A DNA stretch of 14,106 nucleotides. It comes from a virus (Duplodnaviria > Heunggongvirae > Uroviricota > Caudoviricetes). The notes under the pieces are model-generated. The model was not told the DNA's origin. It saw only the letters and a program-made list of their open reading frames with translations, and did no database searches. The stretch is from the IMG/VR virus record IMGVR_UViG_2563366844_000002, positions 1 through 14,106 of that record; one strand, 5' to 3'. Made by a program: the position numbers and the translations under genes. Every line of letters begins with the position of its first letter. Position 1 is the first letter of the stretch. Below are positions 566-12,005 of the stretch, piece by piece.

Positions 566-856
566 CTACCGCCGCAACCGTTCCGGCTTCTTCCACTGGT
601 AAGTATTTTTCGCGCTCTCCCTCCGTTGTTGAGAACGGCGACGGTATGCCAGCAACTCAAGAACTCTGGTTCGTATGTTGCGCATATCCACGCCGTTAAG
701 CTCAATACCGTCACGGCGCATTACCTCAGCCACCACACGCGTGTAATTTTCGGCTATCACGCTGTCCGGCTGTGTAGCCTGTTCGTCAGGCTGCTGACTG
801 ATTCCGGTAATGCGGCGAATTATTTTTAGTAGATCAGTTTCAGTCATTCTCGTCAT
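566..856 (-). CDS. Hypothetical 96-aa protein, last gene of the packaging operon
   Basis: Start ATG at 856-854 overlaps the TerL stop at 855-853 (ATGA overlap, translational coupling). No family recognised from the sequence. Confidence 0.5.
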   Translation of the reverse strand: MTRMTETDLLKIIRRITGISQQPDEQATQPDSVIAENYTRVVAEVMRRDGIELNGVDMRNIRTRVLELLAYRRRSQQRRESAKNTYQWKKPERLRR

Positions 857-2514
857 ACCCCATCAAACGCCGCAAGTCGCTCTTTGTGGCTGTCGCTCAT
901 ATCAAATGCAAATTCCTCATGCTCTGCCTGGAATGTGCCAAACGCCATCAGCGCCGCAACGCTCGGGTCTATCTTGTTGGATGATTTTTTCTTGTTCGGC
1001 TTGATATTGGCGTTCGCGTCACTCTGCATCACAACATTACTCATTGACCAGGCCAGCACCGGATCACCACGATGCACAATCACCTTCCGGTTAACAAAAA
1101 CTTCGAACGATTTCGCCGCCGGACTGAAACGAAGGTATGTTTGCGGGAACGGCTCCACCTCTAATCCTGCCCCCTGTAGCTGCGTCCTCAGGTGCGTGGC
1201 GTTCCATGTATCGAAGCCCACCAGCCTGATATTGAAATTCTCTGCATCCGCCATGATGTCATCACGGATACGGTCATAATCAATGCAGTCACCCGGTGTT
1301 GTGCGTATCCAGCCCGCCTTTACCCACTGGCGATAGATGGCGCGGTTTTTATTGGCGGGGTTCTGTAGCTGAAATTCCGGCAGATAGTGACGGGAAACCA
1401 GCATAATCTTTTTACCGACCGGAAAGGCATAGCACACGCTGGAAATATCGCTGGTTGATGATAAGTCCAGCCCCGCGTAGCACTCCTGCCCGTATAAATC
1501 CGCCTCCGCGAACGTTCCGGCGCACTCCGCCCATGCACCGTTACCCATCCACGGCGTAGCCCCCTGACACCAGATATTGAATCGCTTGGTGAGCATTTCC
1601 ACCCACTGCGACGGAATACCCCGCGCTTTCTGGATGGTTGAGGCCAGTTTTTCACGATCGACGGAAACATCGATATTTGGATTCGCCTTTATCCACATCG
1701 CCGGATCGTCAACCTCGCTTTCATCATCCAGCTCGTAAATCAGAACGAACATGGATTCGTTCATCTCTTCACCATCCAGTATCTGACAGCAATAGTCATA
1801 GTGTTGTTTACAGGCTGAAACAACGTTGCTCCCCGATGTGGTGATGGCAAATAACAGCCCCTCCGGACGCGCCCCCATCCCCAGCTCAAGTGCGGAATAA
1901 ACCCCGTTGTCTGGGTGCAGGTGATATTCATCCACAATGGCAAGACTCGGGTTTGTCCCCTCAATGGTTGCCGCTTTTGCTGCCAGTGGCTTTAACAGGC
2001 TGTTGGTTTTCGGGTGTATCACCTTGTGCGCCTGAATATTTACCCGCTTTCGTAACGGTCGGGATAAAAGGCACATCTGACGCGCATCATCAAACACGAT
2101 CCGCGCCTGATCACGACTCACGGCGGCGGTGTAAATATCCTGCTGCCCGTTTTCCATAACCAGAAACCAGTTAGCCAGGATAGCGGCGACCGTGGATTTG
2201 GCATTTTTTCGCGGTACTTCAATGAATGCGCTGGTGTATTTGCGCCGTCCGGTGGCCTTAACCTTAAAGCCCAGGATGCAGGCAAAGGCGAACTGCTGCC
2301 ACGGCTCCAGTTCAATGGGGCTACCGCGCATTGCGCCTTTTACGTGCGGGCACACCCGGGAAAAGGCAATAAACCGCTCCACGACCTCCGGATCGAACGT
2401 GTAAAGGGAGTTTTCAAGGTCAGAAAAATACCGTTTAACGGCCTGTTTCAGTCGTTTACAGGCCGTAATTTTGCCGTTTTTTACGCCTTCTGCGTACTCA
2501 TGCCAGGCGGTCAA
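853..2514 (-). CDS. terL: Phage terminase large subunit
   Basis: 553-aa ORF with the N-terminal ATPase pattern and overall layout typical of phage large terminases. The annotated start is a TTG at 2514-2512, preceded by GAGGAAGAGGA at SD distance and overlapping the TerS 3' end by 17 nt. Confidence 0.85.
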   Translation of the reverse strand: MTAWHEYAEGVKNGKITACKRLKQAVKRYFSDLENSLYTFDPEVVERFIAFSRVCPHVKGAMRGSPIELEPWQQFAFACILGFKVKATGRRKYTSAFIEVPRKNAKSTVAAILANWFLVMENGQQDIYTAAVSRDQARIVFDDARQMCLLSRPLRKRVNIQAHKVIHPKTNSLLKPLAAKAATIEGTNPSLAIVDEYHLHPDNGVYSALELGMGARPEGLLFAITTSGSNVVSACKQHYDYCCQILDGEEMNESMFVLIYELDDESEVDDPAMWIKANPNIDVSVDREKLASTIQKARGIPSQWVEMLTKRFNIWCQGATPWMGNGAWAECAGTFAEADLYGQECYAGLDLSSTSDISSVCYAFPVGKKIMLVSRHYLPEFQLQNPANKNRAIYRQWVKAGWIRTTPGDCIDYDRIRDDIMADAENFNIRLVGFDTWNATHLRTQLQGAGLEVEPFPQTYLRFSPAAKSFEVFVNRKVIVHRGDPVLAWSMSNVVMQSDANANIKPNKKKSSNKIDPSVAALMAFGTFQAEHEEFAFDMSDSHKERLAAFDGV

Positions 2515-2854
2515 GTTCGTCCTCTTCCTCTGTTTCCGGTGGATTTCTGCGACGGCTTACCGGGTCAAAACCCAGCAAAGAAGCCATTTTGATCATTATT
2601 CTTTCTGCGTCAGCCTTTGCGCTCAGTGCGGGGTTTCTGCTCTCGCTGCCCTGACTGTTAACAATGCTGAACCCGCGCGTCGCAAGGTCTTCGACGGCTT
2701 TGCGGTATATGGAGTAGTTAACACAATACAGTTCCAGATTGCTCCAGTCGGCGGGGGTAAGGTCTTCCCGCCCGGAAAGCTGGCGCGATTTTTCCTTCCA
2801 CTGCCTGACCGCGATTTCATCCAGGTAAGCGGGGGTTTTTGGTGGTCTTGCCAT
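2498..2854 (-). CDS. terS: Terminase small subunit (P27-family-like)
   Basis: From the internal ATG at 2854-2852 the product starts MARPPKTPAYLDE and carries the P27-type TerS pattern (LTPADW...LELYC..YS.YRKA...NPA...SLLGFDPVSRRR). The ORF-track extension up to 2995 looks non-coding. Confidence 0.75.
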   Translation of the reverse strand: MARPPKTPAYLDEIAVRQWKEKSRQLSGREDLTPADWSNLELYCVNYSIYRKAVEDLATRGFSIVNSQGSESRNPALSAKADAERIMIKMASLLGFDPVSRRRNPPETEEEDELDRLA

Positions 2855-2905
2855 GTTCTTTTTTCGCCCAATTATTTTCAAAAAAATTACCGTGCACAAA
2901 AATTT

Positions 2906-2965
2906 GAGGGGGCGGTCGGTGTCCGGCAGGGACGGTTTCGTCCTGAAAACCGCCCCCACCCCCTC
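2906..2965. other. GC-rich nested inverted repeat between HNH and terS; candidate cos/packaging site or structured element
   Basis: GGGGGCGGT at 2908-2916 pairs with ACCGCCCCC at 2949-2957. An inner hairpin GGACG-GTTT-CGTCC lies at 2930-2943, and extra GAGGGGG (2906-2912) / CCCCCTC (2959-2965) arms flank it. Sits in the 120-bp gap upstream of terS. Confidence 0.35.
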
Positions 2966-2973
2966 TGACGGCC

Positions 2974-3159
2974 TCACCAGCGATTGCGAAAACATTCCAT
3001 GACCTCGCGGTCACGGTCGGTTAATCGCTTCGCTGTGGTGCGTTTTGTGCGCCCTGTCCTGTTGGCTTTGTGCTCTGTCTCCTGTGTCTTCCATGTGTCA
3101 CGCTGCCTTATCAGTCCACGTATCAGCCTGGTTTGCTCCTGTTCAGTCATCATCGCCAT
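2974..3159 (-). CDS. Possible small basic ORF (about 61 aa) between HNH and terS
   Basis: Internal ATG codons at 3159, 3153 and 3150 lie just upstream of the HNH stop at 3145-3143. Product MAMMTEQEQTRLIRGLIRQRDTW... is highly basic. The upstream part of ORF 2974..3354 overlaps HNH in another frame and is not considered coding. Confidence 0.3.
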   Translation of the reverse strand: MAMMTEQEQTRLIRGLIRQRDTWKTQETEHKANRTGRTKRTTAKRLTDRDREVMECFRNRW

Positions 3160-3583
3160 ACATCCAGTCGTTACGGTGTGCCGCCCGTTCTTCCTGCTCG
3201 CGATACATGCCCGCTTTACGGTTTGCTTTCGTGGCTGGATCTTCTCGTGTCGTCTTACGGTTGTGGCACGTCTGGCACAATGCCTGGTGATTCCACTCAG
3301 GCCAGAAGAGAACATCACCGCCGCCATTGATGGGAATGATGTGATCCACCACAAGAGCTGGCGTATAAATCCCCTTAGCCAGACAACGCACGCATAACGG
3401 GTTTTTGCTCAGGTACAGGGCGCGGTATTTGTCCCACTGTCGGGAATACCCGCGCGCGCGGCGGTGTCCCCGTCTGGCATCCTCTGCACGCCATGCAGCC
3501 CGCCTGTGCTCTTCACACTTGCCGGACTTCACGCGCTTATTACAGCCAGGCTCAGTGCATCGCCTTAATGGTTGCCACGGCAT
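3143..3583 (-). CDS. HNH endonuclease (phage packaging-associated)
   Basis: Cys pairs near the N-terminus (CTEPGCN, CEEH) and an HNH core VVDHIIPINGGGDVLFWPEWNHQALCQTCHNRKT. Located just upstream of terS/terL, as in HK97-like packaging modules. Start overlaps the connector stop by 1 nt. Confidence 0.85.
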   Translation of the reverse strand: MPWQPLRRCTEPGCNKRVKSGKCEEHRRAAWRAEDARRGHRRARGYSRQWDKYRALYLSKNPLCVRCLAKGIYTPALVVDHIIPINGGGDVLFWPEWNHQALCQTCHNRKTTREDPATKANRKAGMYREQEERAAHRNDWMYGDDD

Positions 3584-3885
3584 CAGTACACCCCTACGTC
3601 ACGATAAACTGACCAGAGCGCAGAAATAGCCATAGGCAGTTCCGAGTGCTCCACTGGTGAAACCGCTTCCCGGTTCTCGTACAGGAAAGCGATGTACATC
3701 AGGCAACCAACACGCATTGCCGGGGTAAATTCCAGCCCGTCTTCAAAACGTTTCCCGATATGCTTCTGGCAGGCTTCCAGCGCCGCATCGGTATACATTT
3801 TCAGAAGTTCGCCTTCACCGGATAAATCATCATCAAGTCGAAGATGTGCCCTGACTTCATCAGGTGTAATTCTGGCTTCACTCAT
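3583..3885 (-). CDS. gp6-like head-tail connector protein
   Basis: From the internal ATG at 3885-3883 (preceded by AGGGAGAAAAG) the product starts MSEARITPDEVRAHLRLDDDLSGEGELLKMYTDAALEACQKHIG, which fits the gp6-like connector pattern. The portal stop at 3880-3878 is 2 nt upstream. Confidence 0.7.
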   Translation of the reverse strand: MSEARITPDEVRAHLRLDDDLSGEGELLKMYTDAALEACQKHIGKRFEDGLEFTPAMRVGCLMYIAFLYENREAVSPVEHSELPMAISALWSVYRDVGVY

Positions 3886-5092
3886 CTTTTCTCCCTTTAA
3901 TTTCCACAGTCTGTTTCCATGCCTGGCTGAACTCATCACCACCTTCACGCGGCGGCATACCCTCACGCTCACGGGCTTCGTTCGGATTCATGATCCCGTT
4001 CTTAATCCCTTTCTCATACGTGGCATAACGTTCGGTGGGTGTGGCGCGTAATAAATCGGCTGAATCAAACTCAACCAGATAACGGGTACCAGGTACGGGA
4101 GAAGCCACCAGCAAAGCGGCCTTGATTTGCTGTTCGAAGTTCGCTAGCCACGGGCGCATTGTCATGGTCAGAAACGCGCGGCTTGCCTCGCTGAAATTGC
4201 TGTAGGTGCTGTTGCTGTATTCCTGCAGAAAAATAGGCGATACGTTGAACATGCGGGCGATGTCTTCAATGGAGAAGCGACGGGAGGCCAGCCATTCCGC
4301 ATCCTGGTTACTCATTCCCAGTTGCCTGTAATCCATGCCCCCTTCAAGGATTGGCGTTTTTCCGGCATTTTTCGCCCCCTTGTAGCGTTCCAGAGCATCC
4401 AATGCCTGTTTACCTTTCACGCCGTCCAGCCATTCGCCTGACGTGATAATCCCTGCCGCCATCATGCCATCTTTCATAATGCTGGCTCCGTGACGCTGTT
4501 GAGCAAGGCCAAGCCCCAGCGCCTCACGGCAAATCGTGACGGGGGAACGCCCCAGAAAGCCATCATCCGAGGCATAGCGGAGATGCAAAACTTCTTCCTG
4601 TAAATACGTGCGCACCGTTCCTGTACAGGGTTCGGTGATGGTATAGCGGTATTTGTGTGCGCCTGTGCATTCCGGTACAACACACCCCGGCGCATAAGGA
4701 TGAAGTGATTTTGGCTGCCCGTCCTGCCCCCACTCAATAACCGCATAGGCGTTACCGTTCAGCAGGCAGTGACGCATCATTGTGCGTTTAAACTGGTAAG
4801 GTGTCTGGCACGAATTAGGCTGCTCATTCAGCAGAATATCTACCGGGTGACTGTCCAGCCATTCCCGCGCCTCCCTGCCCTTGTCATTACGTACCAGATA
4901 CAGATAACACGGCATCGTGGCCACCGCCTCAGCGATGACAGAAACCGCATTCATCACTGCAGGCAATGATTCAGCCGTCCCGGCAGAAACATATTCTCCG
5001 GATCCGGTATTCGGTACGCCGGACAGCGCCAGAAAATCATCAATGGACAGGTTACGCTGCTCGCTTTTTTTACGACTAAAAGGCCACCACAT
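3878..5092 (-). CDS. Phage portal protein (HK97-family-like)
   Basis: About 404 aa from the internal ATG at 5092-5090 (MWWPFSRKK...). Size and sequence are portal-like. The ORF-track start at 5182 would overlap the protease gene, so the internal start is preferred; the protease stop at 5096-5094 leaves a 1-nt gap. Confidence 0.85.
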   Translation of the reverse strand: MWWPFSRKKSEQRNLSIDDFLALSGVPNTGSGEYVSAGTAESLPAVMNAVSVIAEAVATMPCYLYLVRNDKGREAREWLDSHPVDILLNEQPNSCQTPYQFKRTMMRHCLLNGNAYAVIEWGQDGQPKSLHPYAPGCVVPECTGAHKYRYTITEPCTGTVRTYLQEEVLHLRYASDDGFLGRSPVTICREALGLGLAQQRHGASIMKDGMMAAGIITSGEWLDGVKGKQALDALERYKGAKNAGKTPILEGGMDYRQLGMSNQDAEWLASRRFSIEDIARMFNVSPIFLQEYSNSTYSNFSEASRAFLTMTMRPWLANFEQQIKAALLVASPVPGTRYLVEFDSADLLRATPTERYATYEKGIKNGIMNPNEAREREGMPPREGGDEFSQAWKQTVEIKGRKDE

Positions 5093-5093
5093 A

Positions 5094-5654
5094 TCACAAC
5101 CCCGCCAGCTCAGACCAGCGATGACGATTATTTCCTGTCGGACGTAATTCAGGGTGCTGTGCAAACAACGAACGGTGGGCAATCTCCACGCCAGATTCTG
5201 GATAAGCAGGCATCGACGTTATTGTGATTTCACGGAGTTCAGCGGCGGTTACGGTACGCAGATACGGTTTTTGCGCGATACTCCACTCCTCGCATAATGC
5301 GCGAAAACCAAAGCTCATTCCTGTAATGTCGCCACGCTCCACCAGCGTAAGCACATCTTTTCCAAGCTGGGTATCCGGCGGTGTCAGTTCAAAACGTAAC
5401 CCGGTGTTATCCTCAGTCAGTACCAGAGTGCCGGATTTGGTGCGCCCCAGCAGTTGGGTATAGTCATGCTCATACAGGCAGCGCACATCATTACCCGTCG
5501 CCAGATAGTCAGCAAAAGCCCCCGGCGTGAACTGTTCGCGGAATTCGTCCCAGATAATTTCTGAAAGGCTGTTCCAGCGAACGGCATACCCCACCAGCTT
5601 TTTATTGCTGGCGGTCAGTTCAGATGTGCGGATTTCAAAATCGGTGTTTTTCAT
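5094..5654 (-). CDS. Prohead maturation protease (HK97-family, S78-like)
   Basis: 186 aa with a GMSFGF-containing core typical of HK97 prohead proteases. Lies between the major capsid and portal genes. Confidence 0.85.
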   Translation of the reverse strand: MKNTDFEIRTSELTASNKKLVGYAVRWNSLSEIIWDEFREQFTPGAFADYLATGNDVRCLYEHDYTQLLGRTKSGTLVLTEDNTGLRFELTPPDTQLGKDVLTLVERGDITGMSFGFRALCEEWSIAQKPYLRTVTAAELREITITSMPAYPESGVEIAHRSLFAQHPELRPTGNNRHRWSELAGL

Positions 5655-5673
5655 CGGTGTACTCCATAAAACT

Positions 5674-5695
5674 GAAAAAGGAGGCCGCAGCCTCC
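5674..5695 (-). terminator. Intrinsic terminator/attenuator hairpin between capsid and protease genes
   Basis: Stem AGGAGGC (5678-5684) / GCCTCCT (5689-5695) with a 4-nt loop. On the minus-strand transcript it is followed by UUUU-CAG-UUUU, directly after the capsid stop. Confidence 0.45.
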
Positions 5696-5708
5696 TCCTT
5701 ACTCATGA

Positions 5709-6878
5709 CTAGCCAGCTTTCATTTCCAGAATTTTGATGGCGTTTGAATCCACCACACCACCGCCCAGATATTTATCCGTGTGGACCTTGTAGAATCCGG
5801 GTTCAGTAATGTTGTCCGGTCGGGTGCGAATCCCTGTTACATGATCAACGATGAAATAACCACGACTGAAATCTCCAACCGCTAGCGGTGCTTTTCCTGT
5901 GCCGATGTCCGGCATGGACTCCAGGCAGTAAACAGGACGACCAAGCAACATATCCGGCGCACCTTCTTTAAGGCTGTCGCGCCAGATATAATCGCCGTTC
6001 TCATTTTTCAGCTTCTGTAGTGCCCCTGCCGTGCCCGAGTTCATCACCCAGACGGCATTTTTGCGGTATTTCGCTTTCAGCTTGTAGAGAATGTCGATCA
6101 GTTCGTCCGCTGTAATGGCGGTTCCACTTGCCGCTACCATTTTTTCAATGGTGCCAAAAGCGCGGGTTTTGTCACTGGTCGCCGCACGGGTGTAAGCCAT
6201 GAAGCCTTTCGGCTTGCCGTTACCGTCGCCATTAACAAAATCATCCTCTTCGGTGCTGGCGAACGTGTCGGCAATTTCGGAGGATAACCAGCCCAGAATA
6301 TCCACCTCTGAAAAATCCAGGATTTCCTGCGTGGTTTTCGGGTAGGCGTAGATCGGATTCAGCTTGATGGTTACGCGTTCAATTTTCGGGGTGTTGGTTT
6401 CACTGCGTGCGCTGCCTTCTGTGCCTCGTCCTACAGTTGCGCCGCCAGTGGAAACCAGTTTCTGAAACTCATTTGATTTTGCGGTCTTCACGGTCGCGAT
6501 CACGCGCATAACACTGTCATCCTGTAGCTGGCGCATGACTTCGCGATCGAGCTCAGGAATTACGGTATATCCACCATCCCTGCCGCTGTCAGTGCTGGTG
6601 GACAGTGATCGCACATCTCCGGTTACGATGTAGTTACGCAATTCATCAGATGATAATTTCTGGATGCCCGTTCCTGGCTTGCTGCGTTCTTCATCAGCCA
6701 CAGACTCGAGGCGGGAAATTTCTGTGTCGAGGGAATCGGCTTTTGCACGCAGTTCATCAAACTGTTTGCCCTCGTCATCGTTCAGGCTGCGGTTTTCACT
6801 GTCGGCTTTTTCCAGCAGGGATCGCATCTGGTTTTTCAGGGCGTTTTTTTGCTGGCGGAGTTCGATTAATTTCTTCAT
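5709..6878 (-). CDS. Major capsid protein (HK97 fold family)
   Basis: 389 aa with an N-terminal coiled-coil/delta-like region (MKKLIELRQQKNALKNQMRSLLEKADSE...) followed by an HK97-type capsid body. It is the first gene of the packaging operon. Confidence 0.9.
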   Translation of the reverse strand: MKKLIELRQQKNALKNQMRSLLEKADSENRSLNDDEGKQFDELRAKADSLDTEISRLESVADEERSKPGTGIQKLSSDELRNYIVTGDVRSLSTSTDSGRDGGYTVIPELDREVMRQLQDDSVMRVIATVKTAKSNEFQKLVSTGGATVGRGTEGSARSETNTPKIERVTIKLNPIYAYPKTTQEILDFSEVDILGWLSSEIADTFASTEEDDFVNGDGNGKPKGFMAYTRAATSDKTRAFGTIEKMVAASGTAITADELIDILYKLKAKYRKNAVWVMNSGTAGALQKLKNENGDYIWRDSLKEGAPDMLLGRPVYCLESMPDIGTGKAPLAVGDFSRGYFIVDHVTGIRTRPDNITEPGFYKVHTDKYLGGGVVDSNAIKILEMKAG

Positions 6879-7027
6879 GAAGGTTTTCTCGTATTGGTTA
6901 AGATTCAGGACGTGAAACCAACACGGAGGGAGCGCCGCCCGACACTCTCGGCATCTCGCAGATCAACCCGGCATCACGCAGGGGGTCAGGCGGCATTGTG
7001 GCGGCTCACGTCTGAGTGCCACACGCC

Positions 7028-7055
7028 AACATATACATAAAAATCAGTATGTAAA
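7028..7055 (-). promoter_or_regulatory. Candidate sigma70-type promoter of the capsid/packaging operon
   Basis: On the minus strand, TTTACA (plus 7050-7055), a 16-nt spacer, then TATGTT (plus 7028-7033). Sits just downstream of the terminator at 7114-7141 and about 140 nt upstream of the capsid ATG. Confidence 0.3.
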
Positions 7056-7071
7056 CATCAGCCAGAATCAC

Positions 7072-7098
7072 CGAACAATCTGGAACAACCGCGAACAA
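7072..7098 (-). promoter_or_regulatory. Three phased direct repeats (GAACAA core, 10-bp period) upstream of the candidate capsid-operon promoter; putative activator binding site
   Basis: Plus-strand CGAACAA at 7072-7078, GGAACAA at 7082-7088 and CGAACAA at 7092-7098. On the minus strand these read TTGTTCG / TTGTTCC / TTGTTCG, ending 17 bp upstream of the -35 hexamer. Confidence 0.4.
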
Positions 7099-7113
7099 AT
7101 AATTTACAAAACC

Positions 7114-7141
7114 TGAAAAAAGACCCGGGAAAAATCCGGGC
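7114..7141 (-). terminator. Rho-independent terminator at the end of the replication/early operon
   Basis: GC stem CCCGG (7124-7128) / CCGGG (7136-7140) with a 7-nt loop. On the minus strand it is followed by UCUUUUUU (reverse complement of 7114-7123), 10 nt after the stop of the 82-aa ORF. Confidence 0.5.
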
Positions 7142-7151
7142 CTTTATCGCT

Positions 7152-7400
7152 TTACTGTTTCACGGGATCGCGCATTCTGCGCCTTATTTTCCACAAATAT
7201 TCGATCATCGCTTCCACCTGCTCACGGTTGGTTGCGAAAATTTCCCCGGTCAGTGAGCTGCGCAGAAAATCATGATGATCCACAACAAATAACGCATCGG
7301 AAGAAAGCAGACGGCGATATTTTTTTGCTGTCGTGGTTTCCAGATCATCAATACCATGAAACTTTTTATGTTGCTGAACTTCTTCAAATGTCACTGGCAT
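7152..7400 (-). CDS. Hypothetical 82-aa protein
   Basis: ATG at 7400-7398 preceded by AGGGGGA at SD distance. Lies 17 nt downstream of the SSB stop. No family recognised. Confidence 0.55.
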   Translation of the reverse strand: MPVTFEEVQQHKKFHGIDDLETTTAKKYRRLLSSDALFVVDHHDFLRSSLTGEIFATNREQVEAMIEYLWKIRRRMRDPVKQ

Positions 7401-7417
7401 GTATCCCCCTGTTATCG

Positions 7418-7840
7418 CTAAAAGGGTATGTTATCCCCGTATGGATCATCATTCCCCGCCTGTTGCTTAGCCCTATTTAGAGCGTCAGTAGCCTGACCCT
7501 GCTGGCCTTTTTTGCCACTAGGTCGCGCCGTTCTGGCACTGATTACGCTGTCTGCGATAACCTGCCAGCCCTGCCGCGTTTCCCCGTTCTGGCCTGTCCA
7601 CTGGCTTACCTGCATGTTACCCGCCACGCTCACCAGCTCGCCTTTGTGGTGTTTTGCCAGTGCGTCGGCCTGTCTGCCAAACGCCAGGACGGATAACCAC
7701 ATCGTCGCCTGTCCGTCATCTGCCTGATTGCACGGCAGGGGGACCGCCATGCTTGCCATAGCCATTTGTGTGCCCTTGCTGGTGGTCTTTAACTGCGGGT
7801 CAGCCACCAGCCGCCCGTAAGCTGCTATCTGTGCTGTCAT
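7418..7840 (-). CDS. ssb: Single-stranded DNA-binding protein (SSB-like OB fold)
   Basis: 140 aa; the N-terminal pattern (AAYGRLVADPQLK ... WLSVLAFGRQADALAKHHKGELVSVAGNMQVSQWTGQNGETRQGWQVIADSV) parallels the bacterial SSB OB fold. C-terminal DDPYGDNIPF resembles the conserved acidic D-I-P-F tail. Confidence 0.75.
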   Translation of the reverse strand: MTAQIAAYGRLVADPQLKTTSKGTQMAMASMAVPLPCNQADDGQATMWLSVLAFGRQADALAKHHKGELVSVAGNMQVSQWTGQNGETRQGWQVIADSVISARTARPSGKKGQQGQATDALNRAKQQAGNDDPYGDNIPF

Positions 7841-7902
7841 GCTGTCTGTTCTCCGGTTTTAACGTTGATAGTTACGCTTGTTTACACCCTTACGGTGAAA
7901 TT

Positions 7903-8029
7903 CTGCGGGTTATAATCGCACTTTTGCGGGTTATAACTGCCGTTTTGCGGGTTACGTGCGGGTTATTGATTTCCTTTTTATTCATACAGTTAATTCACTT
8001 ACACACAGGATAACCCGCATAACCCGCAA
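7903..8029. repeat. Origin-like iteron cluster: 4 direct repeats, AT-rich spacer, 2 inverted repeats of TTGCGGGTTA
   Basis: Copies at 7903-7912, 7924-7933 and 7945-7954 (21-bp spacing) and 7956-7965, then a 44-bp AT-rich stretch (7966-8009), then inverted copies TAACCCGCA(T) at 8011-8020 and TAACCCGCAA at 8020-8029. Lies immediately 3' of the primase gene. Confidence 0.75.
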
Positions 8030-8051: not shown

Positions 8052-10175
8052 TTAATCTTCTGCCTCAGGCTGGAACATCATCACGTAAAAAACATGCTGC
8101 TTACCCCCAATTTTGCCGAGCGCCTTTTTCTTGTAACGGCGATCGTTACCCGCTTCCAGCATTCCGGCAGCACTCAACGCGCGGGCAAAGTGGGACGGGT
8201 TAAATCCCTGTGCGATCTCCCCCTCAAACACATGAGGAAACGTGTAAAAACGGAACTCATCATCTTCATTTCTGATACTCCCCTTTCTGTATCCGGCAAG
8301 GTCTTTAATCGGTAAATCACGTTCATCACTGTTTGGGTAAGGAAGGTATCGACTGAACCCGAACGACGACAAAAACGCCTCAGCCTGTTCAACCATCTGT
8401 TTAAATTCCCTGTTACCCGTGCCGAACTCCTTCACCCAGGCATTAAAGTTATGCTGTATTGCGTCCCGGCATTCCTGCGCGGCCCAGCCAGTTACATGAC
8501 CGGAAAGCACAAGCGCAGCCTCCAGTATCGCGAAACGTTCCCCCACGCGGTGGACCTGCTCGCCGTAGCTCTCCGGTATCAGGTTGCGCCACCGTTCGCG
8601 GCATTCCCTTACCGTATCCTTTGCCTCCTGCTGGTGGTCTGCCAGCCATTTAACCCATTCACGACCCGCCGCCCCGTGATTTTCTGTCCAGGCATCTTTT
8701 AACGCGTCTGCGTGCGCCTTTCCGGTGCTGTATTCGTGAAATTGCGTGGCTTTTTCCATCGGAACGTTAAGCAGGCGGACAAGCTGCCCCGCTTTGACTT
8801 TTATCCCCTCCGTTTTGAGGAATGTCTCAACGTCCATTTCTCCGGTGCTGATTGCCACCGTGCGCCAGTGTTTTATCTCCCGGTTGCCGCCGTCCTTCGC
8901 CCCCTGTAATTTCCCGGAGCCGTTAAACAACGTATAGGCTGACGTGGACACCTCCCGCGCGTTTCCGGCCTGACCTATTTCATCCAGGGGTAACAGCCCG
9001 TCGTTGTGTGCCTCTGCCTCGTTGGCGATACCTAACGCCGTTCCGTACCAGGTAAGCCGTTGTGCGTCCGGCTCTCCCCATAAACTTGATGCGATGTTCT
9101 GCGTGGTGGTTTTCCCTGCCGATGACTGTTCGAAAAGATGTACCCCGAAGCCGTCAGCACCAACAAGGCCAATCAAAGGTGCTGACAGTGACGTGGCAAC
9201 ACCCAGCATCATGGACGGATTGCCACCAGCCAGCCGCGCCACGCTGTCACGCCAGCCCTCCGCCGTACCCGCAACCGAATAGCCATTAACAGCGGCACTT
9301 TTTCCGGTAAACAGGATCGGTTTTTCAGAATCACCAATGATTGAACCGTCCGGCATGATGTACGCGCCAAAATGCCAGCCTGTTGTTGTGCTTAGCTGCC
9401 ATTCCTCATGGCTTCCGCTTAACTGCATCCAGTCAGCCAGGATAGCCCTGTATTTGCCATTTGTTGTCACGTTCAGCCCGTGATCTTTAAGCAACCGCCA
9501 GCCGTCACGGTCGCCAATGCCACCACACGGGATCGCCATTGTGATGACTTCATGGTTTGCTAATTTTTTCCAGCGCATCACGCGGTAATGTTCTTTACCG
9601 ATCGTCCCCGTTCCCAGTAGTTCAAGCGGAGAACATAACCACGTCTCAGGCCGGATAATTTCGCCTGACTGCTTATCCACTTTGGGCGTTACCCAGAAAA
9701 CACCATCGACGCGACTTTCAACGCGGGGCTTTAATTCATCATCCTGATAGCATGGCTCTTTTTTCTTTACAGGCAGTTCAACTACCTTTTTCTTTTCCGC
9801 CAGCTCTGCCCGTTCACGTTCCAGATATTCACGCCAGTTCTCCCGTTTCTGGCTGTGCATTCCTTCAGGGTAATAATCAGCATCCCTGACACCTGCCGCT
9901 GCCAGTTTCTGCCCGATGGTATTAACAACCCCCGGACGCAATAACCCCGCCTGATAGAGACGCACGCGATAGCGCCCGTCCGGTACGATTTGCAGCTTAT
10001 CCAGTTCGGATAACTGCTGCTCACCAAGCCACACAGGAGGCACGTTATCGCCAGCCAGTCGCCCGTCCTGTTCCTGCCACTGCTTCGCATGTGCCCACGC
10101 ATCACTACCCGCAAAAATGATGACTTCCGTCATTTTGTCACGCGGCTGGTGTTTTAAATTTGGCGCTTTTTTCAT
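8052..10175 (-). CDS. Replication protein, primase/helicase-like with P-loop NTPase (Pri-Rep-like)
   Basis: About 707 aa from the ATG at 10175-10173 (preceded by GGAGAGAG). Walker A-like motif SSAGKTT in the central region and an N-terminal region that looks toprim/primase-like. ATGA overlap with the upstream 99-aa ORF. Confidence 0.75.
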   Translation of the reverse strand: MKKAPNLKHQPRDKMTEVIIFAGSDAWAHAKQWQEQDGRLAGDNVPPVWLGEQQLSELDKLQIVPDGRYRVRLYQAGLLRPGVVNTIGQKLAAAGVRDADYYPEGMHSQKRENWREYLERERAELAEKKKVVELPVKKKEPCYQDDELKPRVESRVDGVFWVTPKVDKQSGEIIRPETWLCSPLELLGTGTIGKEHYRVMRWKKLANHEVITMAIPCGGIGDRDGWRLLKDHGLNVTTNGKYRAILADWMQLSGSHEEWQLSTTTGWHFGAYIMPDGSIIGDSEKPILFTGKSAAVNGYSVAGTAEGWRDSVARLAGGNPSMMLGVATSLSAPLIGLVGADGFGVHLFEQSSAGKTTTQNIASSLWGEPDAQRLTWYGTALGIANEAEAHNDGLLPLDEIGQAGNAREVSTSAYTLFNGSGKLQGAKDGGNREIKHWRTVAISTGEMDVETFLKTEGIKVKAGQLVRLLNVPMEKATQFHEYSTGKAHADALKDAWTENHGAAGREWVKWLADHQQEAKDTVRECRERWRNLIPESYGEQVHRVGERFAILEAALVLSGHVTGWAAQECRDAIQHNFNAWVKEFGTGNREFKQMVEQAEAFLSSFGFSRYLPYPNSDERDLPIKDLAGYRKGSIRNEDDEFRFYTFPHVFEGEIAQGFNPSHFARALSAAGMLEAGNDRRYKKKALGKIGGKQHVFYVMMFQPEAED

Positions 10176-10471
10176 TTCTGCTCTCTCCACGCGGCAATCA
10201 TGTTTTTCAGTTCCTGTAGTTTTTTATCAACATCCATACATGACACATGGTTATTTCTGGAAAGCGGGATTTCCCGCCGGAATCTGCAAATAAAGATCTC
10301 CACGTTCAGCGAACTATGAAATGAATAGCCATCACGAATAAAATACACACGGTCAAACATCAGTCCTTTTACCGTTACTCTGTTACCGTTCTTATCCAGA
10401 TAAATAGCGCCGGGGATAATTTTGGGGTGTGCATAACCGCTGGCAGTCAAGCCAGATAAATATGTTCTCAT
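10172..10471 (-). CDS. Hypothetical 99-aa basic protein (AT-rich gene)
   Basis: ATG at 10471-10469 with GGGGA upstream. Stop overlaps the primase start (ATGA). Local GC is visibly lower than flanking genes. No family recognised. Confidence 0.55.
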   Translation of the reverse strand: MRTYLSGLTASGYAHPKIIPGAIYLDKNGNRVTVKGLMFDRVYFIRDGYSFHSSLNVEIFICRFRREIPLSRNNHVSCMDVDKKLQELKNMIAAWREQK

Positions 10472-10477
10472 GATTAT

Positions 10478-10798
10478 TTATCCCCGATTTGAATCAGTAT
10501 TCGCTTTCTTTATGGCATTTAATGCATCTGCAGCATTTTCAATGGTGCACCGTAACGAAATATCAAACTGCCCAAGCATTGCCAGTAACAAACCGATATT
10601 ACCCATATCAATGCGCATAGCCTTTTCGTCATAGTCCTCATTTTCTGACGCATGCCACATCAGGCTACCAATTGACGCAATACCCATTGATATATTGTCA
10701 GTAGCCCCATACGCAGCGGAATAAACCTTTTTAGCAATATCATGCTCACAGTTAAAATGCGGATTAATCAGGTACTGGTAATTTGACATATCAGGCAT
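10478..10798 (-). CDS. Hypothetical 106-aa acidic protein (AT-rich gene)
   Basis: ATG at 10798-10796 preceded by AGGGGG at SD distance; 8-nt overlap with the upstream small ORF. No family recognised. Confidence 0.55.
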   Translation of the reverse strand: MPDMSNYQYLINPHFNCEHDIAKKVYSAAYGATDNISMGIASIGSLMWHASENEDYDEKAMRIDMGNIGLLLAMLGQFDISLRCTIENAADALNAIKKANTDSNRG

Positions 10799-10994
10799 GG
10801 CACACCCCCTGACGAATACGGGCGGCGAATACCATCACGCAGCCAGCCGGGGATTGCTGGCGTGCTTCCTGTTCGCTGGTGGCCTCAATGGTAATCACGC
10901 GCGGTTGTGCCGTGCTCAGGGCGATAAAACGCCAGATGTATTTATTCAGGTTGTGCGAGTCCCGCCCTTGCGGGTGTGTGGTATGATTTAACAT
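10791..10994 (-). CDS. Possible 67-aa protein (3' portion of the long ORF 10791..11456)
   Basis: Internal ATG at 10994-10992 is preceded by GAGG with a 5-nt spacer. Its stop overlaps the start of the 106-aa ORF. The upstream part of the 221-aa ORF is rejected (see noticed_but_rejected). Confidence 0.35.
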   Translation of the reverse strand: MLNHTTHPQGRDSHNLNKYIWRFIALSTAQPRVITIEATSEQEARQQSPAGCVMVFAARIRQGVCHA

Positions 10995-11029
10995 AGCTAC
11001 CTCGATACTGTTGCTATCGTTGGTGGTTA

Positions 11030-11064
11030 GAAGCCCGGTTAGTGTTCCCGCACTGCCGGGCTTC
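11030..11064. promoter_or_regulatory. Inverted repeat GAAGCCCGG-N17-CCGGGCTTC in the divergent regulatory region
   Basis: 9-bp perfect arms at 11030-11038 and 11056-11064. No U-run on either side, so it is more likely a protein-binding site or RNA structure than a terminator. Confidence 0.3.
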
Positions 11065-11094
11065 GCTGTATTTAATGGTTGCGTATTTTTAATG

Positions 11095-11139
11095 TGGTAC
11101 GTACCATTTGATTTCAGTTTATAACGATGGTACGTACCA
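11095..11139. promoter_or_regulatory. Two identical 12-bp perfect palindromes TGGTACGTACCA (operator candidates)
   Basis: Copies at 11095-11106 and 11128-11139, centres 33 bp apart. The second abuts the ATG of the plus-strand RHH gene at 11140. AT-rich -10-like hexamers on both strands lie between them (around 11118-11125). Confidence 0.6.
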
Positions 11140-11322
11140 ATGCAAGAAGAAAATGTGAAACCAAAATTTGATCGCTCCGGCAGCACAAAGAAAAACATCC
11201 GCTTCGAAGACACATTGTTGCAACAAATTAACGAAGTTGCAGGGCCTGGTAATTTCAGCTCATGGGTAAAAAATGCTTGTCGTGATAAGCTACGCAAAGA
11301 AGGCATAGAACCCAAAGGCTGA
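11140..11322 (+). CDS. Small ribbon-helix-helix-like DNA-binding protein (putative regulator), divergent from the replication operon
   Basis: 60 aa; KKNIRFEDTLLQQINEVAG...NFSSWVKNACRDKLRKEG fits a beta-strand plus two-helix RHH layout. It has its own downstream plus-strand terminator at 11417-11446. No clear SD, so possibly leaderless. Confidence 0.5.
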   Translation: MQEENVKPKFDRSGSTKKNIRFEDTLLQQINEVAGPGNFSSWVKNACRDKLRKEGIEPKG

Positions 11323-11416
11323 CAGCCAACCAGCAAGCCAGCACACTGATCACATTGCCCACCAGCCGCAAATGTGGCATTGTTGGTGATGCGTTCAAGT
11401 TTAGTGTGTATCCATT

Positions 11417-11446
11417 GGCGACCGCCCCCGGTCGCCTTTGTTTTAT
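11417..11446 (+). terminator. Rho-independent terminator downstream of the RHH gene
   Basis: Stem GGCGACCG (11417-11424) / CGGTCGCC (11429-11436) with a 4-nt loop, followed by TTTGTTTTAT (11437-11446). There is no U-run in the minus orientation. Confidence 0.6.
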
Positions 11447-11461
11447 GTGCCATCACTCCCC

Positions 11462-11665
11462 CTATGCTGCCTTACCTGAATTAACTCGGTCACGGTTTTG
11501 CACCCAGTCCATAACTTCGGAAAGCAACCAACCTACAGAACGCCCACCAAGATTACGGCGAGACGGAAAGCTCCCTTTTTTCTCCAGTTCATAGCGAGTG
11601 GTACGGCTAACCCCGGTTAACTTACTGCATTCAGCCTCACGGATTATGCGGTCAAATTGAGCCAT
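11462..11665 (-). CDS. alpA: AlpA-family transcriptional regulator
   Basis: From the ATG at 11665-11663 the 67-aa product MAQFDRIIREAECSKLTGVSRTTRYELEKKGSFPSRRNLGGRSVGWLLSEVMDWVQNR has the typical AlpA HTH pattern. Start is preceded by GGGGGGAGTG. Confidence 0.8.
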   Translation of the reverse strand: MAQFDRIIREAECSKLTGVSRTTRYELEKKGSFPSRRNLGGRSVGWLLSEVMDWVQNRDRVNSGKAA

Positions 11666-11675
11666 CACTCCCCCC

Positions 11676-11864
11676 TTACACCGTCTGCGTTCTGCGAGTG
11701 GATGCAAGATAAGCATCGAGATCAGTGCGCATATACAGCACTTTGCGCCCCAGCTTATGAAAAGGGATTTTTACCTTGCCAGTACACGCCCAGTTAGCAA
11801 GAGTCTGGACACTTACCCCCAAATGCTCGGCAGCTTCTTTGCGGGTCATCTTTTCTAAATGCAT
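11676..11864 (-). CDS. Excisionase-family (MerR-like HTH) DNA-binding protein
   Basis: KEAAEHLGVSVQTLANWACTGKVKIPFHKLGRKVLYMRTDLDAYLAS fits the excisionase/HTH_17 pattern. ATG at 11864 is preceded by GGTGA; alternative starts are GTG at 11873 or ATG at 11849. Confidence 0.7.
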   Translation of the reverse strand: MHLEKMTRKEAAEHLGVSVQTLANWACTGKVKIPFHKLGRKVLYMRTDLDAYLASTRRTQTV

Positions 11865-11936
11865 GAGTATCACCGTATACTTCTGATTAAGAACAGGTAT
11901 ACGTTATTTAGCGATGGGGAAGTCTTGAAGACAGGA

Positions 11937-11966
11937 AAACCAGATACAAAATCGCATATCTGGTTT
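11937..11966. other. 10-bp-arm inverted repeat AAACCAGATA-N10-TATCTGGTTT (candidate terminator for the int-cargo transcript, or operator)
   Basis: Arms at 11937-11946 and 11957-11966. On the minus strand it is followed by UUUCCUGUCUU. Sits 40 bp downstream of the AT-rich cargo ORF and upstream of the excisionase-family gene. Confidence 0.3.
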
Positions 11967-12005
11967 ACATGGCTGAAATCTGGATTACAGAGGATAAAAC
12001 TGGAT

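What the first reader, a model, noticed from the sequence alone, without database searches (positions are those of the whole stretch)
7028..7098. Three helically phased TTGTTC(G/C) direct repeats directly upstream of the capsid-operon promoter
On the minus strand, TTGTTCG, TTGTTCC and TTGTTCG recur at an exact 10-bp period, ending 17 bp upstream of a plausible -35 (TTTACA-N16-TATGTT). Phased direct repeats in this position are typical of class I activator sites. AlpA/Xis-type proteins bind direct repeats, so this may be where the island or a helper-phage factor switches on capsid and terminase expression, separately from the replication operon that ends at the terminator at 7114-7141.
Basis: seen in the sequence. 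Interest (0 to 1): 0.55.

Follow-up and report, generated by a model that had tools for sequence, protein, structure and literature searches.

The report
Predicted AlpA operator upstream of satellite capsid promoter
Three evenly spaced short repeats just upstream of the capsid-gene promoter of a phage satellite are real, conserved across many gut bacteria, and are most likely the landing pad for the satellite's own small regulator AlpA, which would switch on capsid and DNA-packaging genes.

Summary
TTGTTCG, TTGTTCC and TTGTTCG lie on the minus strand at 7098-7072 with an exact 10-bp period. An exact phased 6-mer triple arose in only 10 of 2000 shuffles. The window is a capsid-forming PICI. The repeats belong to a conserved block: terminator, invariant TTGTAAATTA box, three 10-bp repeats, -35/-10, structured leader, capsid gene. 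Box-to-leader spacing is 85-86 nt in 100 unique blocks from many Enterobacterales. The blocks form two alleles, with TTC or TAC at the same three phased positions.

In related islands whose only Xis-like protein is AlpA, the same phased TTGTTCN arrays occur in two further places: beside integrase-arm-like doubled motifs at both island ends, and upstream of alpA. The published TorI sites (GTTCG core, 10-bp period) have the same layout. Islands with only an excisionase-family HTH protein carry TAC-type arrays at both their ends and their capsid promoter. The window has both proteins but a TTC array, so AlpA is the predicted binder.

Binding, activation and the transcription start are inferred, not shown. 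One AlpA subfamily occurs with either allele. I rate it a new member of a known kind (excisionase-type phased operator), of moderate interest. The covarying leader RNA has no Rfam match and is a separate lead.

The parts
7116..7145 (-). Intrinsic terminator ending the replication-module transcript (after the 82-aa ORF at 7152-7400)
   Evidence: hairpin GGCCCGG/CCGGGUC followed by a U-run, -16.6 kcal/mol, z = -3.16; the only weak Rfam hits in the region are terminator-like leader or sRNA 3' ends at this site.
7100..7109 (-). TTGTAAATTA box, the most conserved upstream element; in phase (11 nt) with repeat 1
   Evidence: TGTAAAT is nearly invariant in 100 unique promoter blocks from many genera. 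The distance from the box to the leader hairpin is fixed at 85-86 nt.
7092..7098 (-). Repeat 1, TTGTTCG (centre about -74 from the predicted start)
   Evidence: The in-phase TTC core is present in 74% of 54 unique blocks of this allele.
7082..7088 (-). Repeat 2, TTGTTCC (centre about -64)
   Evidence: The in-phase TTC core is present in 77% of blocks. The bases upstream of the core vary among E. coli relatives, e.g. TTCTTTCG in L003.
7072..7078 (-). Repeat 3, TTGTTCG (centre about -54)
   Evidence: The in-phase TTC core is present in 42% of blocks. It is retained in L001 and L129, where repeats 1 and 2 are degenerate.
7050..7055 (-). Predicted -35 hexamer TTTACA
   Evidence: GTTTAC(A/T) is highly conserved in the 85-nt allele.
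7028..7033 (-). Predicted -10 hexamer TATGTT (TATCTT in most relatives), inside the conserved TTTTTCATGTATATCTT
6879..7022 (-). Structured 5' leader of the capsid operon: P1 at 7022-6998, P2 at 6994-6933, P3 about 6925-6889. The P1 loop GACGUG (7012-7007) is complementary to CACGUC (6914-6909).
   Evidence: -54.9 kcal/mol, z = -3.0. P1 is 100% paired with 2 covarying pairs; P2 has compensatory changes at 8 of 9 pairs; the long-range pairing is 100% paired in 25 sequences; no Rfam family.
566..6878 (-). Packaging operon controlled by the promoter: HK97-type capsid (5709-6878), protease, portal, connector, HNH, TerS (P27 family), TerL, 96-aa ORF
   Evidence: Pfam.
11462..11665 (-). alpA (67 aa, Phage_AlpA family), the predicted binder of the repeats. 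It is a precise 212-bp cassette between two GGGAGTGATGGC copies.
   Evidence: It is 54/63 identical to the AlpA of L124, an island with TTGTTCN arrays at both ends.
11676..11873 (-). Excisionase-family HTH_17 gene, directly upstream of alpA. It is the predicted recombination directionality factor of this island and is not the predicted binder of the TTGTTCS array.
   Evidence: HTH_17-only islands carry TAC-core arrays at their ends and capsid promoter.

Best explanation
The three repeats, together with the TTGTAAATTA box, form an operator array for the island's AlpA protein, a small winged-helix protein of the excisionase type. The array lies on one face of the DNA helix, at about -54, -64, -74 and -84 from the predicted start of the packaging-operon transcript.

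Proposed sequence of events: when alpA is switched on (published: by a helper phage, and by AlpA itself), AlpA monomers bind head to tail on the phased sites. They probably bend the DNA, and they help RNA polymerase use a promoter with a good -35 (TTTACA) but a weak -10 (TATGTT, 16-nt spacer). The capsid, protease, portal, HNH and terminase genes are then expressed as a unit, separately from the replication genes, which end at the terminator just upstream.

Shown here: the repeats, their phasing, their conservation and fixed spacing, and the co-occurrence patterns. Inferred: AlpA binding, activation, the transcription start, and contact with the polymerase alpha subunit.
For: 1. The phasing is non-random and conserved. 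In 100 unique promoter blocks, chosen by capsid protein or by the leader hairpin and not by the repeats, TTC or TAC occupies exactly three offsets 10 bp apart (42-77%) and is at most 11% at any other offset. Spacing to the promoter and leader is fixed at 85-86 nt.

2. The block behaves as an autonomous promoter module. In L001 and L003, opposite-strand accessory genes are inserted between the replication genes and the block, and the block stays next to the capsid gene. In the EDL933-type element (L002) the box and repeats are kept although the core promoter and leader differ.

3. Published precedent: TorI sites have a GTTCG core, with a block of three sites separated by 2 nt, i.e. a 10-bp period (PMC2951348). 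Excisionase-type sites in general are direct repeats one helical turn apart (PMC7498355). P2 Cox activates the P4 late promoter from phased cox-boxes (PMC3936717).

4. In AlpA-only islands the same TTGTTCN arrays sit next to doubled integrase-arm-like motifs at both island ends (L124, L208). The array stays the same when the doubled motif changes (L061, L113). Six to seven phased copies lie about 260 bp upstream of alpA (L035, L208, L077, L087). That promoter is experimentally activated by AlpA (PMC6092414).

5. Co-variation: HTH_17-only islands have TAC-core arrays both at their ends and at the capsid promoter (6 of 6 genome loci, 6 of 6 viral contigs). Short and other non-long AlpA islands have TTC arrays (12 of 12). 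The window and L126 have both proteins: in L126 the island ends carry TAC-type arrays, and both have a TTC-type capsid array.

6. alpA is a precise cassette. L125 has the empty junction, no TTGTTCS array, and a different late module.

7. An alpA mutation abolishes cf-PICI induction and transfer, alpA overexpression is used to drive EcCIEDL933, and capsids form without a helper phage.
Against: There is no binding, footprint, reporter or transcription-start data for any cf-PICI.

The long AlpA subfamily occurs with either allele (about 10 TTC and 10 TAC unique combinations). Nearly identical AlpA helix-turn-helix sequences are found on both sides: L306 and L211 differ by one residue. In L127 the array upstream of alpA has a TTC core while its capsid array has a TAC core.

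The best-conserved element, TTGTAAATTA, is invariant across islands with different regulators. That points to an additional, shared factor, possibly from the host.

Repeat 2 is variable among close E. coli relatives, and repeats 1 and 2 are degenerate in L001 and L129.

The regulator-allele association is not corrected for shared ancestry.

AlpA of P. aeruginosa acts as an antiterminator, not a classical activator (PMC7969949).

In the window-type island the array is the only TTGTTCS cluster, so there is no within-island second site.
Confidence: 0.55

Rival explanations
1. The array is a regulatory site for the same promoter, but it is bound by something other than AlpA. Candidates are the HTH_17 excisionase-family protein, a host nucleoid protein acting at the TGTAAAT box and repeat 1 (Fis- or IHF-like), or another conserved island protein.
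For: TTGTAAATTA plus TTTGT is nearly invariant across islands that encode short AlpA, long AlpA or only HTH_17. Long AlpA does not track the allele. From my own knowledge, not tested here: GTAAATTATTTGTTC fits the loose Fis pattern G-N13-C with an AT-rich centre, and lambda Xis and Fis sites overlap in attR.
Against: HTH_17-only islands use TAC-core arrays at both their ends and their capsid promoter, whereas the window has a TTC array. The TTGTTCN arrays follow AlpA through three different integrase-arm motif types and appear at the alpA promoter, which is AlpA-activated. No host-factor site could be tested with these tools.
Confidence: 0.22
2. AlpA binds the array but does not activate from it. 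The array could repress or insulate, as TorI does at PintS and Apl and Cox do at their own promoters. It could be an architectural or vestigial recombination arm site. Capsid genes would then be expressed by AlpA-dependent read-through of the terminator, as in antitermination by P. aeruginosa AlpA.
For: Most excisionase-type proteins studied as regulators are repressors (PMC2951348; PMC7498355; PMC3936717). P. aeruginosa AlpA is an antiterminator. A strong terminator lies immediately upstream of the array. In the other allele a terminator hairpin lies between the array and the -10.
Against: The array lies upstream of the -35 and does not overlap it. Spacing to the -10 and leader is fixed at 85-86 nt, as expected for stereospecific contact with polymerase. 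The P. aeruginosa AlpA site lies between -35 and -10 and has an unrelated sequence, GGGACG-N5-GGTA. The window's leader contains no terminator. Opposite-strand genes inserted upstream in L001 and L003 argue against dependence on read-through. P2 Cox shows that a protein of this type can activate a satellite's late promoter.
Confidence: 0.13
3. The repeats are replication-origin iterons or terminase (cos/pac) recognition repeats rather than transcriptional sites.
For: Phased TTGTTC arrays occur in many unrelated viral contigs. From my own knowledge, the P4 alpha protein binds TGTTCACC iterons; such iterons occur downstream of the primase gene in relatives (L127 at 11700-11950, L126).
Against: The window has its own iteron set, six copies of TGCGGGTTAT in direct and inverted orientation at 7901-8028, directly after the primase gene. 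The capsid-upstream array is unchanged in islands with three different replication proteins: DUF927 primase, the 605-aa primase and a RepA helicase. The linear record of vB_KppS-Ant begins just upstream of terS, which places cos there, about 4 kb from the array.
Confidence: 0.03
4. The repeats are a chance or purely structural feature, such as curved DNA, with no specific binding protein.
For: The region is T-rich and phased. TTGTTCS occurs at the chance frequency in the window as a whole.
Against: An exact phased triple arose in 10 of 2000 shuffles. A specific trinucleotide core is conserved at three phased positions in 100 unique sequences, in two discrete alleles. The same motif recurs at island ends and at the alpA promoter.
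Confidence: 0.05

Closest known systems
TorI binding sites in attL of the KplE1 prophage (excisionase that also represses PintS)
   Same: Small winged-helix protein of the excisionase type. GTTCG-type core. A block of three sites separated by 2 nt, i.e. a 10-bp period. The sites double as transcriptional control elements (PMC2951348).
   Different: TorI sites overlap the -35 and repress; here the array lies upstream of the -35 of a structural-gene operon. The window's AlpA shares only about 30% identity with TorI over 31 residues and did not hit the TorI structure by sequence.
P2 Cox activation of the satellite P4 late promoter PLL through phased cox-boxes
   Same: An excisionase-type protein binds direct repeats spaced 10-11 bp apart beside a satellite's late promoter and activates it (PMC3936717).
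   Different: Cox is encoded by the helper phage, whereas AlpA is encoded by the satellite. The motif is different (TTAAAG/CNCA). P4 PLL drives regulatory and replication genes, not a capsid operon.
AlpA of E. coli PICIs (EcCICFT073, EcCIEDL933, EcCIMP1)
   Same: Same protein family and the same role as the island's master activator. It activates its own promoter and is required for induction and transfer (PMC6092414, PMC11773190, 10.1101/2022.09.08.507074).
   Different: My searches of the held library found no published operator sequence or target at the packaging operon. The array described here is a prediction.
AlpA of Pseudomonas aeruginosa (Q-like antiterminator)
   Same: Same Pfam family. 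It positively controls a lysis or late-type operon.
   Different: Its site, GGGACG-N5-GGTA, lies between -35 and -10, and it acts on a downstream terminator (PMC7969949). Neither feature is present here.
Class I activator sites, and OmpR/PhoB-type tandem arrays (own knowledge)
   Same: Sites lie on one helical face upstream of the -35. The proximal edge near -51 leaves room for the polymerase alpha C-terminal domain.
   Different: The regulator family is different. Dependence on the alpha subunit has not been tested.

Membership tests
Capsid-forming PICI (cf-PICI) satellite | Integrase, alpA and primase genes, plus own HK97-type capsid, protease, portal, connector, HNH, TerS and TerL; no tail or lysis genes; about 10-15 kb | tested here: met
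   Pfam assignments on minus-strand ORFs. About 14 kb from the integrase gene to the last ORF. Relatives are integrated at tRNA-Ile or the clpS/cspD site.
Excisionase-type (RDF) phased direct-repeat operator (TorI, Xis, Cox, Apl kind) | Three or more direct repeats spaced one helical turn (10-11 bp) apart | tested here: met
   Exact 10-bp period for three repeats, plus an 11-bp offset box. Conserved phasing in 100 unique blocks.
Excisionase-type (RDF) phased direct-repeat operator (TorI, Xis, Cox, Apl kind) | A cognate small winged-helix protein of the Xis/AlpA type is encoded by the same element | tested here: met
   alpA at 11462-11665 (Phage_AlpA, E = 5.8e-17; PDB 8c3t 'AlpA family', E = 2.8e-7) and HTH_17 at 11676-11873.
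Excisionase-type (RDF) phased direct-repeat operator (TorI, Xis, Cox, Apl kind) | The same motif is found beside integrase arm-type sites at the attachment sites | tested here: inconclusive
   Met in AlpA-only relatives (L124, L208, L061, L113). Not met in the window-type island: its ends, seen in L126, carry TAC-type arrays assigned to HTH_17. The window itself does not include the attachment sites.
Excisionase-type (RDF) phased direct-repeat operator (TorI, Xis, Cox, Apl kind) | Demonstrated protein binding (gel shift or footprint) | not testable with these tools
   No binding data were found in the literature searches.
Class I activator-dependent sigma-70 promoter | Activator site upstream of the -35 on a fixed helical face; recognisable but imperfect core promoter | tested here: met
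   Repeat centres at about -54, -64 and -74. TTTACA, 16-nt spacer, TATGTT. Fixed 85-86-nt spacing. The start site is predicted only.
Class I activator-dependent sigma-70 promoter | Activation requires the polymerase alpha C-terminal domain | not testable with these tools
   Requires genetics or in vitro transcription.
Q-like or AlpA-type antitermination unit (P. aeruginosa alpB promoter) | Binding element between -35 and -10, and an intrinsic terminator in the leader | tested here: not met
   The repeats lie upstream of the -35. None of the leader hairpins is followed by a U-run. The published site sequence is unrelated.
Replication-origin iterons | Located next to the replication gene, and co-varying with the replication protein | tested here: not met
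   A separate iteron set lies at 7901-8028. The array is unchanged with three different replication proteins.
P2 Ogr / P4 Delta-type late promoter | Dyad TGT-N12-ACA centred near -55 (own knowledge) | tested here: not met
   Inspection of 7060-7100 shows direct repeats and no such dyad. No Ogr/Delta-like protein was detected in the scanned ORFs.

The most novel reading that the evidence does not exclude
The roughly 230-bp region from 7109 to 6879 is a portable late-gene switch specific to capsid-forming satellites. In this reading, an excisionase-type master regulator has been rewired to drive a whole capsid and terminase operon. It does so through one of two interchangeable operator alleles: a TTC core for AlpA and a TAC core for the HTH_17 excisionase-family protein. 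Downstream lies a previously undescribed cis-regulatory leader RNA: a near-invariant 5' hairpin, a covarying second hairpin, and a loop-to-downstream pairing that competes with or bridges to the hairpin in front of the ribosome-binding site. This RNA would add a second, post-transcriptional checkpoint on capsid production.
Probability: 0.3. Interest if true: 0.65.

Novelty: new member of a known kind. Interest (0 to 1): 0.45.

Why it matters
Capsid-forming PICIs spread between species by making their own DNA-filled capsids and borrowing phage tails. How the capsid and terminase operon is switched on has not been described.

A concrete, testable operator (three TTC cores plus a TGTAAAT box, at fixed distance from the promoter) would link the known master regulator AlpA directly to particle production. 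It would also give the first sequence motif for PICI AlpA proteins, and that motif explains the arrays seen at island ends and at the alpA promoter. The two operator alleles, which track two regulator families, offer a natural specificity-swap experiment. The promoter block is also a compact inducible module for engineered satellites used as delivery vehicles.

Tried and rejected
- Origin iterons: rejected. The window has its own TGCGGGTTAT iterons at 7901-8028. P4-type TGTTCACC iterons lie elsewhere in relatives and are no more frequent than chance in the window.
- cos/terminase site: rejected. The linear vB_KppS-Ant record starts just upstream of terS.
- P2 Ogr / P4 Delta-type dyad and a sigma-54 promoter (TGGCAC in the leader): rejected by inspection. 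The GG of TGGCAC covaries as a base pair.
- Antitermination site of the P. aeruginosa AlpA type: position and sequence do not fit.
- Rfam: no family at gathering thresholds for the whole window. With relaxed thresholds on 6850-7160 only weak terminator-like hits appear.
- Residue-level co-variation between AlpA and array type: failed within the long AlpA subfamily.
- TAC-type phased triples elsewhere in TAC-allele islands, searched with TTACCC, TTACTC and GTACTC: nothing beyond the capsid promoter. Anchoring on the doubled GGTATCC motif then revealed the wTACY arrays at the island ends.
- The 82-aa ORF just upstream, considered as a candidate regulator: it is absent from classical PICIs that carry the arrays, and from 7 of 26 cf-PICI loci.
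- CFT073 itself could not be located, so the AlpA-activated promoter was examined in homologous islands only.
- Phage collection: only three records share the block, and all look like cf-PICIs or fragments of them.

Full report
**Observation.** On the minus strand, TTGTTCG (7098-7092), TTGTTCC (7088-7082) and TTGTTCG (7078-7072) recur at an exact 10-bp period. TTGTTCS occurs five times in the window, which is what chance predicts, but three of the five form this phased cluster. An exact 6-mer triple at any period from 8 to 12 occurs once in the window and in 10 of 2000 dinucleotide-preserving shuffles. No other phased TTGTTC triple with up to 3 mismatches exists in the window. The only sigma-70-like match in 6500-7900 is TTTACA (7055-7050), a 16-nt spacer, TATGTT (7033-7028). 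The upstream hairpin at 7145-7119 with its U-run is a convincing intrinsic terminator (-16.6 kcal/mol, z = -3.2). It misses a fourth phased element, TTGTAAATTA (7109-7100), which turns out to be the best-conserved part.

**Context.** All genes lie on the minus strand:
- integrase, 12679-14106
- a 228-aa ORF
- an excisionase-family HTH_17 gene, 11676-11873
- alpA, 11462-11665 (67 aa; true start with ribosome-binding site GGGGGGAG)
- an Icd-like gene, a 106-aa ORF and a DUF4222 gene
- a DUF927 primase, 8052-10190
- SSB and an 82-aa ORF
- the terminator, then the repeats and promoter, then a 144-nt leader
- HK97-type capsid, protease, portal, connector, HNH, TerS (P27 family), TerL and a 96-aa ORF

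This is the gene set of a capsid-forming PICI (10.1101/2022.09.08.507074). Close relatives in E. coli sit at tRNA-Ile/nfeF or at clpS/cspD.

**The repeats are part of a conserved, position-locked block.** I collected homologous loci in two ways, neither of which selects for the repeats:
- by capsid protein, in one genome per species (80 loci, of which 28 carry the same leader; these come from Escherichia, Klebsiella, Enterobacter, Kluyvera, Citrobacter, Pluralibacter, Rahnella, Kosakonia, Erwinia, Pantoea, Pectobacterium, Serratia, Providencia, Proteus and others);
- by the exact 25-nt leader hairpin, in viral contigs (at least 120 contigs, mostly 14-18 kb).

All share the same order: TGTAAAT box, three 10-bp units, about 20 variable nt, -35, conserved TTTTTCATGTATATCTT, leader hairpin. 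The distance from the box to the leader is 85 or 86 nt in every one of 100 unique sequences.

The blocks fall into two alleles:
- In the 85-nt allele (54 unique sequences, including the window), TTC occupies exactly three offsets 10 bp apart (74%, 77% and 42%) and is at most 11% at any other offset.
- In the 86-nt allele (46 unique sequences), TAC occupies the same three offsets (67%, 56% and 63%) and is at most 9% elsewhere. In this allele the third unit runs into a terminator hairpin whose T-run supplies the -35 and spacer.

The block stays next to the capsid gene when opposite-strand accessory genes are inserted upstream (L001, L003). In the EDL933-type lineage the box and repeats are kept although the core promoter and leader are different (L002). 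These are the properties of an upstream regulatory site that must sit on a fixed helical face relative to the polymerase.

**Who binds: evidence for AlpA.**
- Published TorI sites in KplE1 attL have cores GTTCG, GATCG and GTCCG, and include a block of three sites separated by 2 nt, i.e. a 10-bp period (PMC2951348). Direct repeats one helical turn apart are the general rule for excisionase-type proteins (PMC7498355; PMC3936717).
- In islands whose only Xis-like protein is AlpA, the same TTGTTCN arrays occur at both island ends, each next to a doubled 12-bp motif of the kind expected for integrase arm sites. In L124, a cf-PICI whose capsid-promoter block is identical to the window's, and in L208, an O157:H7 PICI, the module is [TTGTTCN x 3-4] followed by [GGTGTAGTYAAT x 2]. 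In L061 and L113 the doubled motif is different (GTGTGGTCAGTT x 2) but the TTGTTCG array is unchanged. The array therefore follows AlpA and not the integrase-arm motif.
- Six to seven phased copies lie about 260 bp upstream of alpA in classical PICIs and in EDL933-type cf-PICIs (L035, L208, L077, L087 and four more). AlpA is known experimentally to activate its own promoter (PMC6092414; PMC11773190).
- Islands that encode only the HTH_17 protein and no AlpA (six genome loci and six viral contigs) carry a different end module: phased wTAC(C/T) repeats followed by GGTATCCTATAGGTATCC. These islands always have the TAC allele at the capsid promoter.
- Islands with short or other non-long AlpA types always have the TTC allele (12 of 12 unique combinations).
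- The window and L126 have both proteins. In L126 the ends carry the TAC-type module, yet the capsid promoter carries the TTC array.
- alpA in the window is a precise 212-bp cassette between two copies of GGGAGTGATGGC. L125 has the empty junction, no TTGTTCS array, and a lambda-like late module instead.
- The window's AlpA is 54/63 identical to that of L124. The helix motif SR(S/T)xR(Y/W) is shared by all AlpA types aligned.

**Caveats.**
- Nothing here shows binding.
- The long (about 94-aa) AlpA subfamily is found with either allele. Almost identical helix-turn-helix regions occur on both sides. In L127 the array upstream of alpA has a TTC core while the capsid array has a TAC core.
- Either long AlpA tolerates T(T/A)C, or another factor acts in those islands.
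- The near-invariance of TTGTAAATTA across all regulator types suggests an additional shared factor, possibly from the host. Its resemblance to a Fis-type site is my own recollection and was not tested.
- The associations are not corrected for common descent, although these islands are highly mosaic.
- The transcription start is only predicted.

**Mechanism proposed.** AlpA expression rises when a helper phage induces the island and through AlpA's activation of its own promoter (published). AlpA then occupies the phased sites at about -54, -64 and -74, and perhaps the box at -84. It bends the DNA and stimulates initiation at a promoter with a good -35 and a poor -10 (inferred). The proximal edge of the array at about -51 leaves the -50 to -36 interval free, as at class I promoters (own knowledge). 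The terminator upstream keeps the packaging operon separate from the replication genes.

A helper-phage protein is unlikely to be needed at this promoter. cf-PICI capsids are reported to form in non-lysogenic cells, alpA overexpression is used to drive EcCIEDL933, and an alpA mutation abolishes induction and transfer.

**Rivals.**
- Another binder at the same regulatory site: 0.22.
- AlpA binds but represses, insulates, or acts by antitermination or read-through: 0.13.
- Origin or terminase repeats: 0.03. These are excluded by the separate iterons at 7901-8028, by the array staying the same with three replication-protein types, and by cos lying next to terS.
- Chance or pure DNA curvature: 0.05.

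**Comparison with known systems.**
- In architecture the array is closest to TorI sites.
- In logic it is closest to P2 Cox acting at the P4 late promoter, except that here the regulator belongs to the satellite and the target is a complete capsid and terminase operon.
- It does not fit the P. aeruginosa AlpA antitermination unit: the site position and sequence differ and there is no leader terminator.
- It does not fit P2 Ogr-type late promoters.
- My searches of the held library found no published operator for PICI AlpA. One paper notes the doubled arm motif and leaves its binder open (PMC10111431).

I therefore file it as a new member of a known kind.

**Leader RNA (outside the finding).** The transcript is predicted to start at the first base of a hairpin, GUGGCACUCAGACGUGAGCCGCCAC, which is invariant in most genera. 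The variant form GUGACACUCCGACGGGAGCCGUCAC changes both sides of two pairs. A second hairpin shows compensatory changes at 8 of 9 basal pairs. A third hairpin lies just before the ribosome-binding site. The loop GACGUG of the first hairpin is complementary to the conserved CACGUC 97 nt downstream; the variants have GACGGG and CCCGUC, and this pairing is intact in 25 of 25 sequences. There is no Rfam match. This looks like an undescribed cis-regulatory RNA and deserves its own follow-up.

Noticed in passing
window 6879-7022 (minus strand): The capsid-operon leader is a conserved structured RNA. It has a near-invariant 5' hairpin (7022-6998), a covarying second hairpin (6994-6933) and a third hairpin before the ribosome-binding site. 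The loop GACGUG (7012-7007) pairs with CACGUC (6914-6909), and this pairing covaries in three sequences. There is no Rfam family.
   Followed up: partly
window 7901-8028: Likely replication origin directly after the DUF927 primase gene: four direct TGCGGGTTAT iterons (7904-7966; starts 21, 21 and 11 nt apart) and two inverted copies (8010-8027).
   Followed up: partly
window 11449-11460 and 11661-11672 (minus strand): alpA is a precise 212-bp cassette flanked by direct repeats GGGAGTGATGGC. These repeats are the ribosome-binding site and start region of alpA and of the next gene. L125, like at least 12 E. coli genomes in which the int-alpA region matches in two pieces at 95% coverage, has the empty junction and no alpA.
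   Followed up: yes
window 11940-12005 (minus strand): Upstream of the HTH_17-alpA operon: ATCCAG at 12005, ATCCAG at 11985 and AACCAG at 11965, spaced 20 nt apart, plus an inverted ATCTGG at 11945. This is probably the operator of the promoter that responds to induction. It resembles the TATCCTGG arm motif found near the integrase gene in L126.
   Followed up: no
window 10791-11456: Only the C-terminal ~90 residues of the 221-aa ORF match a family (Icd-like; phrog_6196). The N-terminal part looks non-coding and overlaps an opposite-strand YlcI/YnfO-like ORF that is annotated in relatives. This may be an immunity-type region as in P4 and P1; no Rfam C4/CI RNA hit was found.
   Followed up: no
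L124 2528-2573 and 16959-17014; L208 6875-6930 and 17848-17900; L126 (reverse complement) 2740-2835 and 17330-17385; L061 14331-14400: The ends of related islands carry a two-part module: a phased excisionase-type array (TTGTTCN or wTACY) followed by a doubled 11-12-bp motif (GGTGTAGTYAAT, GTGTGGTCAGTT or GGTATCCTATA). Both ends carry it in the same orientation. The doubled motif is probably the one left unassigned in PMC10111431.
   Followed up: partly
L127 12085-12125 and 45 other unique blocks: In the TAC allele, an intrinsic terminator hairpin lies between the third repeat and the -10, and its T-run serves as the -35 and spacer. Terminator and promoter are thus fused in about 40 nt.
   Followed up: partly
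L004, L006, L015 and at least 14 further viral contigs: An unrelated phage family carries four direct GTTGTTCC(C/G) repeats followed by an inverted copy (GGGAACAAC). No AlpA homologue was detected nearby. Phased TTGTTC arrays are therefore also used by other, unidentified DNA-binding proteins.
   Followed up: no
L002 5790-5835 (minus strand): The EDL933-type leader is unrelated in sequence and ends in a terminator-like hairpin (GTCCTGG...CCAGGAC, then seven T) immediately before the capsid ATG. This hints at attenuation or antitermination control in that lineage.
   Followed up: no
window 7152-7400: The 82-aa ORF just upstream of the terminator (phrog_1957, unknown function) is found in 19 of 26 cf-PICI loci and was not detected in the classical PICI loci compared by tblastn. 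Its function is unknown.
   Followed up: partly
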